Shown here: in pieces, positions 9,080 through 12,772 of the stretch
Layout: every line of letters starts with the position of its first letter
How positions within the stretch are numbered: the stretch's first letter is position 1
The notes under the pieces: model-generated
Databases searched by the model: none
What the model was told of the DNA's origin: nothing
The model's input: the letters and a program-made list of their open reading frames with translations, nothing else
Source of the DNA: Escherichia coli
Lineage (GTDB): Bacteria; Pseudomonadota; Gammaproteobacteria; Enterobacterales; Enterobacteriaceae
Assembly: GCF_016903815.1 (NCBI RefSeq)
Contig: NZ_CP069973.1
Reading direction: 5' to 3' (one strand)
Length of the DNA: 64,000 nucleotides
Made by a program: the position numbers and the translations under genes

Positions 9080-11278
9080 ATGGACAAGGAATTACCGTGG
9101 CTGGCGGATAACGCCCAAGTGGAACTGAAATATAAAAAAGGCAAAACGCCGCTCAGCCATCGCAGTTGGCCGGGCGAACCGGTGCCTGTTATCACTGAAA
9201 GCCTCATCCAGACACTGGGTGATGAATTGCTACAAAAAGCTGAGAAGAAAAAAAACATTGTCTGGCGTTATGAAAATTTTTCACTGGAGTGGCAGTCGGC
9301 CATTACGCAGGCCATCAACTTGATTGGCGAACACAAACCCTCAGTTCCGGCCCGGACAATGGCGGCGCTAGCCTGTATCGCGCAAAATGATAGCCAACAG
9401 TTGCTCGACGAAATCGTCCAACAAGAGGGACTGGAATATGCGACTGAGGTGGTGATTGCACGCCAGTTTATTACACGATGTTATGAAAGTGATCCTCTGC
9501 TAGTGACATTGCAGTATCAGAACGAGGATTATGGCTATGGTTATCGATCAGAAACCTATAACGAATTCGATCTCCGACTGCGTAAGCATCTCTCTCTGGC
9601 AGAGGAAAGCAGCTGGCAGCGTTGCGCCGACAAACTCATTGCCGCACTGCCAGGAATAACCAAAGTTCGCCGCCCTTTTATTGCTCTGATCCTCCCGGAA
9701 AAACCAGAAATCGCCAATGAGTTGGTAAGCCTTGAATGCCCGTGGACTCATTTTCATTCTAAGGAGTGGTTAAAAGTTGTTGCTATTGACCCCAGAGCGG
9801 TGAGAAAACTCGAACGCTACTGGAGCCAGGATATATTTAGCGATCGGGAAGCCAGCTACATGTCGCATGAAAACCACTTCGGCTACGCGGCCTGCGCTGC
9901 CCTTTTGCGCGAACAAGGACTGGCAGCCGTTCCACGCCTGGCAATGTATGCCCATAAAGAAGATTGCGGCAGTCTGCTGGTACAAATTAACCATCCGCAG
10001 GTCATCCGCACCCTGCTGTTAGTTGCTGATAAAAACAAACCCAGCCTGCAACGTGTAGCTAAATACAGTAAAAATTTCCCCCATGCGACGCTTGCCGCAC
10101 TGGCAGAACTGCTGGCGCTAAAAGAACCACCTACGCGCCCTGGTTATCCAATCATCGAAGACAAAAAGCTGCCTGCACAGCAAAAAGCACGTGATGAATA
10201 CTGGCGTACGCTGTTACAAACGCTGATGGCATCGCAGCCACAACTGGCAGAAGAGGTGATGCCGTGGTTAAGTACTCAAGCCCGGTCAGTGCTGAATAGT
10301 TATTTATCGGCACCGCCTAAAACGGTTATTGATAGCACCGATAACAGCCAAATGCCTGAAATCCTCGTTTCACCACCGTGGCGTAGTAAGAAAAAAATGA
10401 CAGTTCCACGTCTTGATTTGGCACCGTTCGAATTAACGCCGCAAGTTTACTGGCAACCAGGCGAACGAGAGAGGCTTGCCGCCACTGAGTCTGCCCGTTA
10501 TTTCAGCACGGAATCTCTTGCGGAACGCATGGAACATAAAAGTGGACGAGTTGTACTACAGGAGCTGGGTTTTGGAGATGATGTATGGCTGTTTCTGAAT
10601 TATATACTCCCCGGAAAACTGGATGCTGCACGCAATTCACTCATTGTTCAGTGGCATTACTACCAGGGGCGGGTTGAAGAGATCCTGAATGGCTGGAACT
10701 CCCCGGAAGCACAATTAGCAGAACAGGCGCTTCGCAGCGGTCACGTAGAAGTGTTAATTAACATATGGGAAAATGACAGCTACTCACGCTATCGTCGGGA
10801 AAAGAGTATCTGGAACCTGTATTTATTGGCACAGTTGCCGCGTGAGATGGCTTTGACTTTCTGGCTACGTATCAATGAGAAAAAGCATCTGTTCGCGGGT
10901 GAGGACTATTTTCTCAGTATCTTCGGATTGGATGCTCTACCAGGTCTGCTGTTGGCTTTTTCACATCGTCCAAAAGAAACATTTCCGTTAATTTTAAATT
11001 TTGGCGCAACAGAACTGGCCCTGCCCGTTGCCCGCGTCTGGCGACGTTTCGCGGCGCAGCGTGATCTGGCTCGCCAGTGGATTTTACAATGGCCGGAACA
11101 TACGGCTACTGCACTTATCCCTCTTGTCTTCACCAAATCCAGCGATAATAGCGAAGCTGCATTACTTGCCCTACGTTTACTTTACGAACAGGGACATGGT
11201 GAATTGCTGCAAACCGCGGCAAACCGCTGGCAGCGTACAGATGTATGGCCTGCCCCGGTCTGGCAAAACTGGTGCTGA
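9080..11278 (+). CDS. Third molR/yehI-family paralog, 732 aa, lacking the N-terminal WGR domain and the conserved C-terminal module
   Basis: ATG 9 bp after previous stop; aligns by eye to the middle of the 5276..9070 product (LPWLAD / LSHRSWPGEPVPV; FDLRLRKHLSLAEES...LPEKPEIA; LEYATEVVIARQ; HATLAALAELL). Ends at TGA 11276..11278. Correspondence to the K-12 names yehK/yehL/yehM not resolved. Confidence 0.7.
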   Translation: MDKELPWLADNAQVELKYKKGKTPLSHRSWPGEPVPVITESLIQTLGDELLQKAEKKKNIVWRYENFSLEWQSAITQAINLIGEHKPSVPARTMAALACIAQNDSQQLLDEIVQQEGLEYATEVVIARQFITRCYESDPLLVTLQYQNEDYGYGYRSETYNEFDLRLRKHLSLAEESSWQRCADKLIAALPGITKVRRPFIALILPEKPEIANELVSLECPWTHFHSKEWLKVVAIDPRAVRKLERYWSQDIFSDREASYMSHENHFGYAACAALLREQGLAAVPRLAMYAHKEDCGSLLVQINHPQVIRTLLLVADKNKPSLQRVAKYSKNFPHATLAALAELLALKEPPTRPGYPIIEDKKLPAQQKARDEYWRTLLQTLMASQPQLAEEVMPWLSTQARSVLNSYLSAPPKTVIDSTDNSQMPEILVSPPWRSKKKMTVPRLDLAPFELTPQVYWQPGERERLAATESARYFSTESLAERMEHKSGRVVLQELGFGDDVWLFLNYILPGKLDAARNSLIVQWHYYQGRVEEILNGWNSPEAQLAEQALRSGHVEVLINIWENDSYSRYRREKSIWNLYLLAQLPREMALTFWLRINEKKHLFAGEDYFLSIFGLDALPGLLLAFSHRPKETFPLILNFGATELALPVARVWRRFAAQRDLARQWILQWPEHTATALIPLVFTKSSDNSEAALLALRLLYEQGHGELLQTAANRWQRTDVWPAPVWQNWC

Positions 11279-11332
11279 CAGTGGGGCTTACAGCAGGCGG
11301 GAGAACAACTGCTAAAAACGGTTCTCACCCGT

Positions 11333-12772
11333 TTGCGCCAGCACCACTTGCCTGCTTCGACCGCGGATATGGCTGCCGCTCATCTGCATGCGATGGCGCT
11401 GGCACAGTTGCGCGGACATAAACTACCGTTACGCACTGACTGGCTGGATGCCATAGCAGGCTCGCTGATTAAAGAAGCCCTGAACGCGCCGTTGCCGTGG
11501 AGCTATCGCGGCGTTATTCATCCCGACACCGATCCGATTCTGCTAACGTTGATAGACACATTAGCGGGTGACGGATTCGGTAAACTTGCCCCTTCTACGC
11601 CACAACCGCCTCTGCCAAAAGATGTCACCTGCGAACTGGAACGTACCGCAATCTCTCTTCCGGCGGAGCTTACCTTAAATCGCTTTAACCCCAATGGACT
11701 AGCGCAAAGTCAGGTGTTACATCGGCTGGCAATACTGGAGATCCCAGGGATTGTACGCCAGCAGGGAAGCACACTGACACTTGCAGGCAACGGTGAAGAA
11801 CAGTGGAAATTAACCCGCCCGCTTAGCCAGCATGCGGCATTGATTGAGGCCGCCTGCTTTGGTGCCACACTCCAGGAAGCCGCACGCCATAAATTAGAAG
11901 CCGATATGCTGGACGCGGGTGGAATCGGCAGTATCACCACATGTCTTAGCCAGGCGGCGTTAGCGGGTCTGGCGTCCTTCAGTCAACAATTATTGGAGCA
12001 ACTCACATTATTAATCGCCCAGGAAAATCAATTTGCCGAAATGGGCCAGGCGCTGGAAGTGCTATATGCCTTATGGCGGCTGGATGAAATTAGCGGTATG
12101 CAAGGCGCGCAGATATTACAAACGACGTTATGCGCGGCTATCGATCGCACGCTGTGGCTGTGTGAATCTAACGGCAGACCAGATGAAAAGGAGTTTCACG
12201 CTCACCTGCATAGCTGGCAGGCGCTTTGCCATATCCTGCGCGATCTACATAGCGGCGTTAATTTACCCGGCGTTTCTCTTTCTGCGGCGGTAGCCTTACT
12301 GGACCGCCGCAGTCAAGCGATTCATGCCCCGGCGCTGGATCGCGGCGCGGCTCTTGGCGCACTGATGCGTCTGGAACATCCCAACGCCAGTGCCGAAGCG
12401 GCGCTGACAATGCTGGCGCAGTTATCCCCGGCACAATCCGGCGAAGCGCTGCACGGTTTGCTGGCGCTGGCCCGCCATCAACTGGCCTGTCAGCCGGCAT
12501 TTATCGCCGGTTTCAGTAGTCATTTAAATCAACTGAGTGACGACGATTTTATTAACGCCCTGCCCGATTTACGCGCGGCGATGGCCTGGCTACCACCACG
12601 AGAACGCGGGACGCTGGCGCATCAGGTGCTTGAGCATTATCAACTGGCGCAACTTCCCGTTTCGGCACTGCAAATGCCGTTGCATTGTCCACCACAAGCC
12701 ATTGCACATCATCAACAACTCGAACAGCAGGCACTGGCATCGCTGCAACACTGGGGAGTTTTCCATGTCTGA
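11333..12772 (+). CDS. Ala/Leu-rich, predicted helical protein of unknown function; true start uncertain
   Basis: Long open frame in the same frame as the preceding CDS, separated from it only by one TGA. Track start at 11333 is a TTG; first in-frame ATG is at 11369. No Walker A motif. Stop overlaps the next gene's start. Confidence 0.55.
   Translation: MRQHHLPASTADMAAAHLHAMALAQLRGHKLPLRTDWLDAIAGSLIKEALNAPLPWSYRGVIHPDTDPILLTLIDTLAGDGFGKLAPSTPQPPLPKDVTCELERTAISLPAELTLNRFNPNGLAQSQVLHRLAILEIPGIVRQQGSTLTLAGNGEEQWKLTRPLSQHAALIEAACFGATLQEAARHKLEADMLDAGGIGSITTCLSQAALAGLASFSQQLLEQLTLLIAQENQFAEMGQALEVLYALWRLDEISGMQGAQILQTTLCAAIDRTLWLCESNGRPDEKEFHAHLHSWQALCHILRDLHSGVNLPGVSLSAAVALLDRRSQAIHAPALDRGAALGALMRLEHPNASAEAALTMLAQLSPAQSGEALHGLLALARHQLACQPAFIAGFSSHLNQLSDDDFINALPDLRAAMAWLPPRERGTLAHQVLEHYQLAQLPVSALQMPLHCPPQAIAHHQQLEQQALASLQHWGVFHV

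What the first reader, a model, noticed from the sequence alone, without database searches (positions are those of the whole stretch)
11270..11372. Single in-frame TGA separates the truncated paralog from the downstream 479-codon open frame
The 9080..11278 CDS ends at TGA (11276..11278). The same frame stays open immediately afterwards (...WQNWC * QWGLQQAGEQLLKTVL...) for another ~1.5 kb, to the stop that overlaps the VWA gene start. The first ATG in that downstream frame is at 11369, and I see no convincing Shine-Dalgarno before it. The possibilities are a recent nonsense mutation splitting a ~1230-aa protein, two genes translated by termination-reinitiation, or stop-codon readthrough or recoding.
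Basis: seen in the sequence. Interest (0 to 1): 0.6.

Follow-up and report, generated by a model that had tools for sequence, protein, structure and literature searches.

The report
Deletion scar fusing yehI and yehM
The in-frame TGA sits 21 bases past the scar of a 4-kb deletion that joined the front of one E. coli gene (yehI) to the back of an unrelated one (yehM); this is ordinary gene decay in one clonal lineage, not recoding.

Summary
The window is E. coli, 100% identical to strain 7/2.

- **Upstream ORF:** 9080..11255 is the first 725 codons of yehI.
- **Downstream frame:** from 11248 the sequence is yehM codons 253-759.
- **Junction:** the two meet at an 8-bp microhomology, GCCTGCCC (11248..11255), that is present in both intact genes.
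- **What was lost:** about 4.0-4.3 kb. This covers the yehI 3' end with its DUF4132 domain, yehK, the zorO-orzO type I toxin-antitoxin locus, yehL and the yehM 5' third.
- **Frame:** the fusion happens to be in frame, a 1-in-3 chance.
- **The stop:** TGA 11276..11278 is yehM codon 262. It is TGG (Trp) in K-12, O104:H4 and MLI108K1, so it is a real G-to-A nonsense change.
- **Distribution:** 94 of 5426 complete E. coli genomes carry this junction, probably the ST405 lineage. Of these, 93 are at least 99% identical across it, and none combines the junction with TGG.
- **Annotation:** RefSeq already marks both halves as pseudogenes.
- **No sign of recoding:** there is no Shine-Dalgarno before any downstream in-frame start, no Rfam match and no unusual RNA fold.

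Whether the stop came before or after the deletion is unresolved. Interest is low.

The parts
9080..11255 (+). yehI 5' remnant (codons 1-725 of 1210). The ORF runs on through the junction to the TGA at 11278, giving 732 aa.
   Evidence: blastn to the K-12 (DH5a) yehI, 95.0% identity, ending at 11255. Protein is 723/725 identical to CE2050 YehI residues 1-725. No Pfam domain remains; DUF4132 maps to YehI ~954-1138, inside the deleted part. RefSeq calls it a pseudogene: 'incomplete; missing C-terminus'.
11248..11255 (+). Deletion junction: the single retained copy of the 8-bp microhomology GCCTGCCC, which occurs in both intact yehI and intact yehM.
   Evidence: Three-way alignment of the window with CE2050 yehI and O104:H4 yehM. 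Identity to yehI runs through 11255 and identity to yehM starts at 11248.
11276..11278 (+). TGA nonsense codon at yehM codon 262 (ancestral TGG, Trp), 21 nt past the junction and followed by C.
   Evidence: TGG in K-12, O104:H4 and MLI108K1; in the two latter it is the only difference over window 11248..11344. No genome has the junction with TGG. RefSeq notes 'internal stop'.
11248..12772 (+). yehM 3' remnant (codons 253-759 of 759; a partial DUF5682 domain).
   Evidence: blastn to K-12 yehM, 96.7-97.0% identity. Protein 484/497 identical to K-12 YehM 263-759. DUF5682 spans YehM residues 20-715. RefSeq calls it a pseudogene: 'internal stop; incomplete; missing N-terminus'.
12765..13901 (+). 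yehP (VWA domain protein), intact. Its ATG overlaps the yehM stop by 8 nt and has a strong SD.
   Evidence: RefSeq annotation of the identical sequence (locus coordinates = window + 1). Sequence GGAGTTTTCCATGTCTGA. SD duplex -7.9 kcal/mol.
13898..15898 (+). yehQ (SWIM zinc finger family), intact.
   Evidence: RefSeq annotation of the identical sequence.
5276..9070 (+). Context: intact WGR + DUF4132 paralog, at the position where K-12 DH5a carries a disrupted DUF4132 pseudogene.
   Evidence: 38% identical to full-length YehI.
1466..5263 (+). Context: an additional intact DUF4132 paralog that K-12 and JNEC-KY175 lack.
   Evidence: 43% identical to the second paralog.

Best explanation
The TGA lies just inside the scar of a lineage-specific deletion in the E. 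coli yeh locus.

**Shown.**
- One illegitimate-recombination or replication-slippage event between two copies of GCCTGCCC, one at yehI codon ~723-725 and one at yehM codon ~253-255, removed about 4.0 kb in K-12 terms and 4.26 kb in CE2050 terms.
- The lost segment held the yehI 3' end with its DUF4132 domain, yehK, the zorO-orzO type I toxin-antitoxin locus, yehL (an AAA ATPase) and the first third of yehM.
- The two reading frames happened to match, so a 1231-codon chimeric frame results.
- A G-to-A transition changed yehM Trp262 (TGG) to TGA, 21 nt downstream of the junction.

**Inferred.**
- Translation from the yehI start ends at this TGA. It yields a 732-aa domainless YehI fragment with a 7-residue YehM-derived tail.
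- The 497 codons that follow are an untranslated pseudogene remnant. They are still open only because too little time has passed for further stops to accumulate.
- Both fragments are non-functional.
- yehP and yehQ remain intact, but yehL is lost and yehM is truncated.
For: - **Identity of the window.** It is 100% identical to E. coli 7/2. RefSeq annotates 9080-11254 as a pseudogene 'missing C-terminus' and 11249-12772 as 'DUF5682 family protein, internal stop, missing N-terminus'.
- **Colinearity with the intact locus.** Window 9000-11255 matches yehI and 11248-13000 matches yehM plus yehP, with 4003 bp missing between them. Relative to CE2050 the gap is 4264 bp.
- **Junction.** The 8-bp microhomology and the shared frame are shown base by base.
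- **Protein identities.** 723/725 to YehI 1-725. 484/497 to YehM 263-759. No similarity between the downstream frame and the DUF4132 paralog.
- **Domains.** DUF4132 lies in the deleted part of YehI and DUF5682 is cut.
- **Ancestral codon.** TGG.
- **Population.** 94 of 5426 complete genomes carry the junction, 93 of them at least 99% identical across junction and TGA. None has the junction with TGG. This yehM allele is found at >=99% in only 96 records; the next best of the records listed (an evenly spaced sample of the ranking) is 97.7%.
- **Continuing decay.** Strain 98224 has the same junction plus a further 10-bp deletion and frameshift.
- **No translation signal.** No SD before any downstream in-frame start.
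- **No RNA element.** No Rfam hit down to E=10, and the fold is not unusual, z = -1.2.
- **The locus decays repeatedly elsewhere.** CE2050 has a yehL frameshift and a yehM stop at codon 224. DH5a has a yehQ internal stop and a disrupted DUF4132 gene. JNEC-KY175 has a yehM internal stop. Shigella sonnei lineages 2 and 3 lost yehM, yehL and zorO in a ~7-kb deletion (PMC12795559). ST131 sublineage L1a carries a transposon in this region (PMC9334617).
Against: - Nothing here measures expression. Non-translation of the downstream frame and non-function of the fragments are inferences.
- UGA followed by C is, from general knowledge of E. coli termination, the leakiest stop context, and near-cognate tRNA-Trp would restore the ancestral residue. 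Trace amounts of the chimera cannot be excluded.
- The 497-codon remnant has no second stop, and the sequence is invariant in 93 genomes. This fits a young clone but does not by itself exclude constraint.
- The order of the two events (TGA, deletion) is unresolved. No intact-locus genome carries this yehM allele; the best is 98.9%.
Confidence: 0.93

Rival explanations
1. Stop-codon readthrough or recoding: the UGA is decoded at a useful rate as Trp (near-cognate) or selenocysteine, giving a 1231-aa YehI'-'YehM chimera with a function of its own.
For: The fusion is in frame, and the frame stays open for 497 codons after the stop. The stop is UGA followed by C, a weak termination context by general knowledge. 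The structure is fixed and invariant in 93 genomes.
Against: The codon is TGG (Trp) in orthologs, not Cys or Sec, and not a conserved stop. There is no Rfam match and no stable or unusual hairpin just 3' of the UGA, z = -1.2. The chimera lacks DUF4132 and the first third of DUF5682, and its presumed partner YehL is deleted. Strain 98224 frameshifts the upstream half with no sign of counter-selection. An in-frame fusion is a 1-in-3 chance outcome.
Confidence: 0.03
2. Two genes coupled by termination-reinitiation: ribosomes that terminate at 11278 restart at TTG 11333 or ATG 11369 and make a 467-479-aa C-terminal YehM fragment. This might also keep yehP translationally coupled.
For: The yehM stop overlaps the yehP start, so translation through the remnant could in principle help yehP. 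In-frame start codons exist 55 and 91 nt after the stop.
Against: None of the seven in-frame candidate starts within 270 nt has an SD. Duplex energies are +1.9 to -2.4 kcal/mol, against a window-wide mean of -1.8 and -4.9 to -7.9 for real starts. Distances of 55-91 nt are long for reinitiation. The fragment begins inside the DUF5682 domain. In genomes with an intact locus this stretch is internal to yehM, with no independent gene there. yehP has its own strong SD.
Confidence: 0.03
3. Sequencing or assembly artefact: a miscalled base creates the TGA, or a misassembly creates the junction.
For: None found.
Against: 93 independent complete assemblies from many laboratories and countries are at least 99% identical over the 181 bp spanning junction and TGA, and all 59 of them listed are 100%.
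Confidence: 0.005

Closest known systems
Pseudogenes already annotated in the E. coli metG-yeh region: the disrupted DUF4132 gene and yehQ in K-12 DH5a, and yehL/yehM in CE2050
   Same: Same locus, same gene families and the same outcome: inactivation of members of the DUF4132 / YehL-M-P-Q cluster by frameshifts and internal stops in individual lineages.
   Different: Here the main lesion is a 4-kb microhomology deletion that fuses two different genes in frame. The internal stop is a second lesion within the fused frame.
Shigella sonnei lineage 2/3 ~7-kb deletion removing yehM, yehL and zorO (PMC12795559)
   Same: An independent, lineage-fixed deletion that takes out yehL, yehM and the zorO toxin locus.
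   Different: Different breakpoints and size. IS elements are listed among the content lost there. I did not examine its junction.
TnMB1860 insertion in the metG/DUF4132/yeh region of ST131 sublineage L1a (PMC9334617)
   Same: Clone-specific disruption of the same chromosomal region in a successful multidrug-resistant clone. It shows the region is dispensable.
   Different: Insertion of a resistance transposon, not a deletion. It affects the DUF4132 genes, not yehI-yehM.
Programmed UGA recoding in E. coli (selenocysteine in fdhF/fdnG/fdoG; the RF2 prfB frameshift)
   Same: An in-frame UGA inside a long open frame.
   Different: Those stops are conserved across orthologs and have a dedicated cis element: a SECIS hairpin directly 3' of the UGA, or an internal SD for prfB. 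Here orthologs read TGG and no such element is detected.

Membership tests
Deletion-generated pseudogene pair (microhomology-mediated deletion) | Both flanks are colinear with two separate intact genes in relatives, and the intervening DNA is present in those relatives. | tested here: met
   Window 9000-11255 matches yehI and 11248-13000 matches yehM/yehP. 4003 bp (K-12) or 4264 bp (CE2050) is missing. Intact yehI-yehK-yehL-yehM is seen in DH5a, CE2050, O104:H4, MLI108K1 and JNEC-KY175.
Deletion-generated pseudogene pair (microhomology-mediated deletion) | A short direct repeat at both breakpoints in the intact sequence, with one copy retained at the junction. | tested here: met
   GCCTGCCC is present in CE2050 yehI and in O104:H4/KY175 yehM. 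One copy remains at window 11248-11255.
Deletion-generated pseudogene pair (microhomology-mediated deletion) | Limited to one lineage, with the intact state in the rest of the species. | tested here: met
   94 of 5426 genomes have the junction. 5222 genomes cover at least 80% of a probe spanning the intact yehM breakpoint. Monophyly and sequence type were not formally tested. Strain names ('405', O102:H6) and PMC9037040 suggest ST405.
Deletion-generated pseudogene pair (microhomology-mediated deletion) | Loss of essential parts of the encoded proteins. | tested here: met
   The YehI remnant has no Pfam domain, and DUF4132 lies in the deleted part. DUF5682 (YehM residues 20-715) is cut at residue 253.
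Nonsense mutation splitting one native ~1230-aa gene | Both halves align to one contiguous protein in orthologs or paralogs. | tested here: not met
   The upstream half is YehI 1-725 and the downstream half is YehM 263-759. The downstream half has no similarity to the 1264-aa paralog, best E = 3.1.
Nonsense mutation splitting one native ~1230-aa gene | The stop replaces a sense codon found in relatives. | tested here: met
   TGA here versus TGG (Trp262 of YehM) in K-12, O104:H4 and MLI108K1.
Selenocysteine or programmed stop-codon readthrough | The in-frame stop is conserved in orthologs. | tested here: not met
   Orthologs have TGG. The only intact yehM found that matches the probe exactly with TGA (JNEC-KY175) is annotated as a pseudogene.
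Selenocysteine or programmed stop-codon readthrough | A cis RNA element (bacterial SECIS hairpin or other stimulatory structure) immediately 3' of the stop. | tested here: not met
   No Rfam match at E <= 10 in 10900-11700. The fold of 11270-11340 is -23.9 kcal/mol against a shuffle mean of -20.6, z = -1.21.
Termination-reinitiation or translational coupling of two genes | A start codon overlapping or close to the stop, usually with an SD inside the upstream ORF. | tested here: not met
   The nearest in-frame starts are TTG 11333 (+55 nt) and ATG 11369 (+91 nt). Anti-SD duplex energies are -2.4 and +0.4 kcal/mol.
Termination-reinitiation or translational coupling of two genes | The downstream ORF is an independent gene in relatives. 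| tested here: not met
   It corresponds to internal codons 263-759 of yehM.

The most novel reading that the evidence does not exclude
The structure is not neutral debris. Either loss of the yehL/yehM module and the zorO toxin was adaptive for the founder of this multidrug-resistant clone (probably ST405), or the retained open frame still matters. It could matter through leaky UGA-C readthrough giving a YehI'-'YehM chimera, or by keeping ribosomes on the mRNA to support expression of the intact yehP and yehQ. Retention of intact yehP, yehQ and two or three DUF4132 paralogs would then reflect a rewired system of unknown function.
Probability: 0.05. Interest if true: 0.3.

Novelty: already known. 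Interest (0 to 1): 0.07.

Why it matters
It matters little for biology. It is one more clone-specific gene loss in a poorly understood region that, in K-12, contains H-NS/StpA-repressed genes. It has three practical uses:

- **Annotation.** The 1231-codon frame must not be annotated or mined as a recoding candidate or as a "split paralog".
- **Marker.** The junction (…GTATGGCCTGCCCCGGTCTGG…) together with the TGA marks this lineage, found in 94 of 5426 complete genomes.
- **Dispensability.** Independent disruptions occur here and in CE2050, JNEC-KY175, K-12, S. sonnei and ST131. Together they show that the YehL/M/P/Q plus DUF4132 cluster is dispensable and often decaying. That is useful background for anyone trying to assign it a function.

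Tried and rejected
- **SECIS or recoding element.** An Rfam scan at E <= 10 over 10900-11700 found nothing. The RNA fold downstream of the UGA is not different from shuffles. Rejected.
- **Reinitiation.** Anti-SD duplex energies for all seven in-frame starts in 11279-11620 are at background level. Rejected.
- **Downstream frame as the C-terminus of a DUF4132 paralog.** BLASTP against the 1264-aa paralog gave a best E of 3.1. Rejected.
- **Ordering the TGA and the deletion.** I looked for a junction with TGG (none) and for an intact yehM with TGA. The second search found one genome, JNEC-KY175. Its yehM differs from the window remnant at 39 sites, the nearest 67 nt from the TGA, so shared ancestry by recombination and independent mutation cannot be told apart. 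A probe for an intact-locus genome carrying the window's yehM allele found nothing closer than 98.9%. Unresolved.
- **Dcm hotspot.** I checked by eye whether the TGG-to-TGA site is a Dcm (CCWGG) deamination hotspot. The context is GCTGGC, so it is not.
- **Defence-system or named-family assignment for the yeh proteins.** PADLOC gave no hits. NCBIfam gave only weak sub-threshold hits: YehL to AAA families and YehP to a cobaltochelatase VWA region. This gave no functional lead.
- **Literature.** Searches for yehL/M/P/Q, DUF4132 and DUF5682 returned only incidental mentions. A search for ST405 with O102:H6 failed on tool syntax.
- **Not run.** The E. coli genome comparison already answers the question.
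Full report
**1. The observation**

- The ORF 9080..11278 ends at TGA 11276..11278.
- Translating 9080..12772 in one frame gives 1231 codons with a single internal stop, in the context ...PVWQNWC*QWGLQQAGEQLLKTVL....
- The frame ends at TGA 12770..12772, which overlaps the ATG of the VWA gene at 12765.
- The longest start-to-stop ORF downstream begins at TTG 11333 and is 479 aa. The first in-frame ATG is at 11369.
- I computed duplex energies between the 3' end of 16S rRNA and the -20..-4 region of every in-frame ATG, GTG or TTG from 11279 to 11620. 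They range from +1.9 to -2.4 kcal/mol. The mean over all 2828 start-like triplets in the window is -1.8. Six genuine starts in this locus score -4.9 to -7.9.

**2. What the region is**

The window is Escherichia coli. The stretch 9000-12900 is 100% identical to strain 7/2, NZ_CP023820.1. RefSeq annotates that record as follows (locus coordinates are window + 1):

| Window position | Feature |
|---|---|
| upstream of 1466 | metG |
| 1466-5263 | DUF4132 protein |
| 5276-9070 | WGR + DUF4132 protein |
| 9080-11254 | pseudogene, "hypothetical protein, incomplete, missing C-terminus" |
| 11249-12772 | pseudogene, [quoted passage not shown] |
| 12765 onward | intact yehP, yehQ, yehR, yehS, btsR, btsS |

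In most E. coli, only the first ~2259 bases of the 9000-12900 query match at its best-scoring place, and they lie in yehI. The K-12 DH5a locus reads yehI (1210 aa), yehK, yehL (ATP-binding), yehM (DUF5682, 759 aa), yehP, yehQ.

**3. The junction**

- blastn of window 9000-13000 against the DH5a locus gives two colinear blocks. Window 9000-11255 matches yehI and 11248-13000 matches yehM plus yehP. 4003 bp of K-12 sequence lies between them.
- The blocks overlap by 8 bases. A base-by-base alignment used the closest available intact alleles: CE2050 for yehI (99.9% identical) and O104:H4 for yehM. Identity to yehI runs through 11255, identity to yehM begins at 11248, and the shared octamer GCCTGCCC is present at both sites in intact genomes. 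This is the signature of a microhomology-mediated deletion.
- Relative to CE2050 the missing segment is 4264 bp. The size differs between references because the yehK-yehL spacer varies in length.
- At the junction, yehI and yehM are in the same phase, so the fusion is in frame. That is a 1-in-3 outcome and needs no special explanation.
- At protein level the upstream ORF is 723/725 identical to CE2050 YehI residues 1-725 and then diverges. The downstream frame is 484/497 identical to K-12 YehM residues 263-759. It shows no similarity to the 1264-aa DUF4132 paralog, best E = 3.1.
- The 1231-codon length, close to the 1264-1265 aa of the neighbouring paralogs, is a coincidence: 725 + 506.

**4. 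What was lost**

- Pfam finds no domain in the 732-aa YehI remnant.
- DUF4132 maps to about residues 954-1138 of full-length YehI, inside the deleted part.
- DUF5682 covers YehM residues 20-715, so the remnant starts inside the domain.
- yehK and yehL are gone entirely.
- The yehK-yehL spacer of intact genomes carries the zor-orz type I toxin-antitoxin locus. Rfam's OrzO-P antitoxin RNA is found once in DH5a and CE2050 and twice in O104:H4. The 29-aa ORF MDTLTQKLTVLIAVLELLVALLRLIDLLK is present once in CE2050 and twice in O104:H4, MLI108K1 and JNEC-KY175. I identify that ORF as ZorO from memory only. The window has neither the RNA nor the ORF.

**5. The TGA**

- The stop corresponds to yehM codon 262.
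- K-12, O104:H4 and MLI108K1 all read TGG (Trp) there. In the two latter genomes this G/A is the only difference from the window across 11248..11344.
- It is therefore a G-to-A nonsense substitution in yehM sequence, 21 nt beyond the junction.

**6. Population picture**

- A 181-bp probe across junction and stop finds 94 of 5426 complete genomes.
- 93 of the 94 are at least 99% identical, and every one of them listed is 100%.
- The exception, strain 98224, has the same junction and internal stop plus an extra 10-bp deletion that frameshifts the yehI remnant. That is further decay, as expected for a pseudogene.
- A probe with TGG restored has no perfect match. The best hits are the junction genomes with one mismatch. 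No genome therefore carries the uninterrupted chimera.
- The yehM-remnant allele occurs at >=99% identity in only 96 records. The next best of the listed records, which are an evenly spaced sample of the ranking, is 97.7%.
- The best intact-locus genome reaches 98.9% on a probe designed to favour intact loci. The immediate ancestor is therefore not among complete genomes, and the order of deletion and nonsense mutation stays open.
- One unrelated genome, JNEC-KY175, has an intact-length yehM with the same TGA and is annotated "internal stop". Its allele differs from the window's at 39 sites. This could be an independent hit or an old recombined polymorphism.
- Lineage assignment is an inference, not an MLST result. 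Four junction-bearing assemblies are named "strain 405" and one is O102:H6. WCHEC4533 and Z1002 also appear in a comparative study built around ST405 (PMC9037040). The lineage is probably ST405.

**7. Mechanism and rivals**

*Best explanation (0.93).* The region holds two adjacent pseudogene fragments, produced by one deletion plus one nonsense mutation. The deletion, the microhomology, the in-frame fusion, the ancestral Trp codon and the lineage restriction are shown. Two points are inferred: translation from the yehI start stops at 11278, and the following 497 codons are silent.

*Recoding (0.03).* The stop is not conserved. No Rfam family matches at E <= 10. The 71 nt from 11270 fold no better than shuffles, z = -1.21. 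The chimera would lack both signature domains and its AAA partner. UGA-C is a leaky context by general knowledge, so trace readthrough inserting Trp is possible. Nothing suggests it is used.

*Reinitiation (0.03).* There is no SD, the nearest start is 55 nt away, and the "gene" is an internal fragment. yehP has its own strong SD of -7.9 kcal/mol.

*Artefact (<0.01).* Excluded by 93 concordant assemblies.

**8. Comparison with what is known**

This locus decays repeatedly.
- DH5a has a frameshifted DUF4132 gene with an internal stop, and an internal stop in yehQ.
- CE2050 has a frameshifted yehL and a yehM stop at codon 224.
- S. sonnei lineages 2 and 3 lost yehM, yehL and zorO in a ~7-kb deletion (PMC12795559).
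- ST131 sublineage L1a carries TnMB1860 in the metG/DUF4132/yeh region (PMC9334617).
- yehL and yehM are up-regulated in hns/stpA mutants of K-12, and H-NS binds the adjacent intergenic region (PMC3686432). Weak expression would be consistent with weak selection.
- The yeh proteins match nothing in PADLOC and nothing above threshold in NCBIfam. The function of the cluster remains unknown, and this finding adds nothing to it.

**9. Verdict**

The feature is already annotated as pseudogenes in RefSeq. It is ordinary and of low interest.

Noticed in passing
window 1466-5263, 5276-9070, 9080-11278: This strain has three tandem DUF4132-family genes after metG. The first two are intact (1265 and 1264 aa, 43% identical to each other), and CE2050 has the same set. 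K-12 DH5a and JNEC-KY175 have only two, and in DH5a the one upstream of yehI is a pseudogene. Copy number of this paralog family therefore varies within E. coli.
   Followed up: partly
L003 13148-13558; L004 3020-4035; L002 16211-16286 (yehK-yehL spacer; absent from the window): The yehK-yehL spacer holds the zorO-orzO type I toxin-antitoxin locus in variable copy number. CE2050 has one toxin ORF and one OrzO-P RNA. O104:H4 has two of each. MLI108K1 and JNEC-KY175 have two toxin ORFs (their Orz RNAs were not scanned). K-12 DH5a has an OrzO-P match but no toxin ORF, so it looks like an orphan antitoxin. The window lost everything with the deletion.
   Followed up: partly
L006 (JNEC-KY175) yehM 15316-17595, codon 262: An unrelated genome with an intact-length yehM carries exactly the same TGG-to-TGA change. 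Its allele differs from the window's remnant at 39 other sites. Recurrent mutation and an old recombined polymorphism cannot be told apart. The site is not a Dcm CCWGG motif.
   Followed up: partly
L003 (CE2050) yehL 13670-14747, yehM 14758-17037; L002 (DH5a) yehQ 20902-22902 and 8276-12071: Independent inactivating lesions occur in other members of the same cluster in other strains: a yehL frameshift and a yehM stop at codon 224 in CE2050, and a yehQ internal stop plus a disrupted DUF4132 gene in DH5a. The whole cluster seems to be under weak selection in E. coli.
   Followed up: partly
L007 (strain 98224) 911-3075: One junction-bearing genome has an additional 10-bp deletion within the 181-bp probe region, and its yehI remnant is annotated as frameshifted. 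This is ongoing decay within the lineage.
   Followed up: partly
window 9000-12900 versus E. coli complete genomes: Counts do not quite agree. 97 genomes cover at least 80% of the 3.9-kb query, 96 records have the yehM-remnant allele at >=99%, but only 94 have the 181-bp junction. Two or three genomes of the lineage may carry a further rearrangement or insertion at or near the junction. I did not identify them.
   Followed up: no
window 29614-29694 (-): This is the only Rfam match above gathering score in the whole 64-kb window: the Peptidase-S11 cis-regulatory RNA motif, 72.8 bits. I did not examine its gene context.
   Followed up: no
window 11248-12772 versus L003 15513-17037: CE2050 is 99.9% identical to the window in yehI but only 96.5% in the yehM 3' part and 97.2% in yehP-yehQ. 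A recombination breakpoint therefore lies somewhere between yehI and yehM in one of the two histories, and the locus is mosaic.
   Followed up: no
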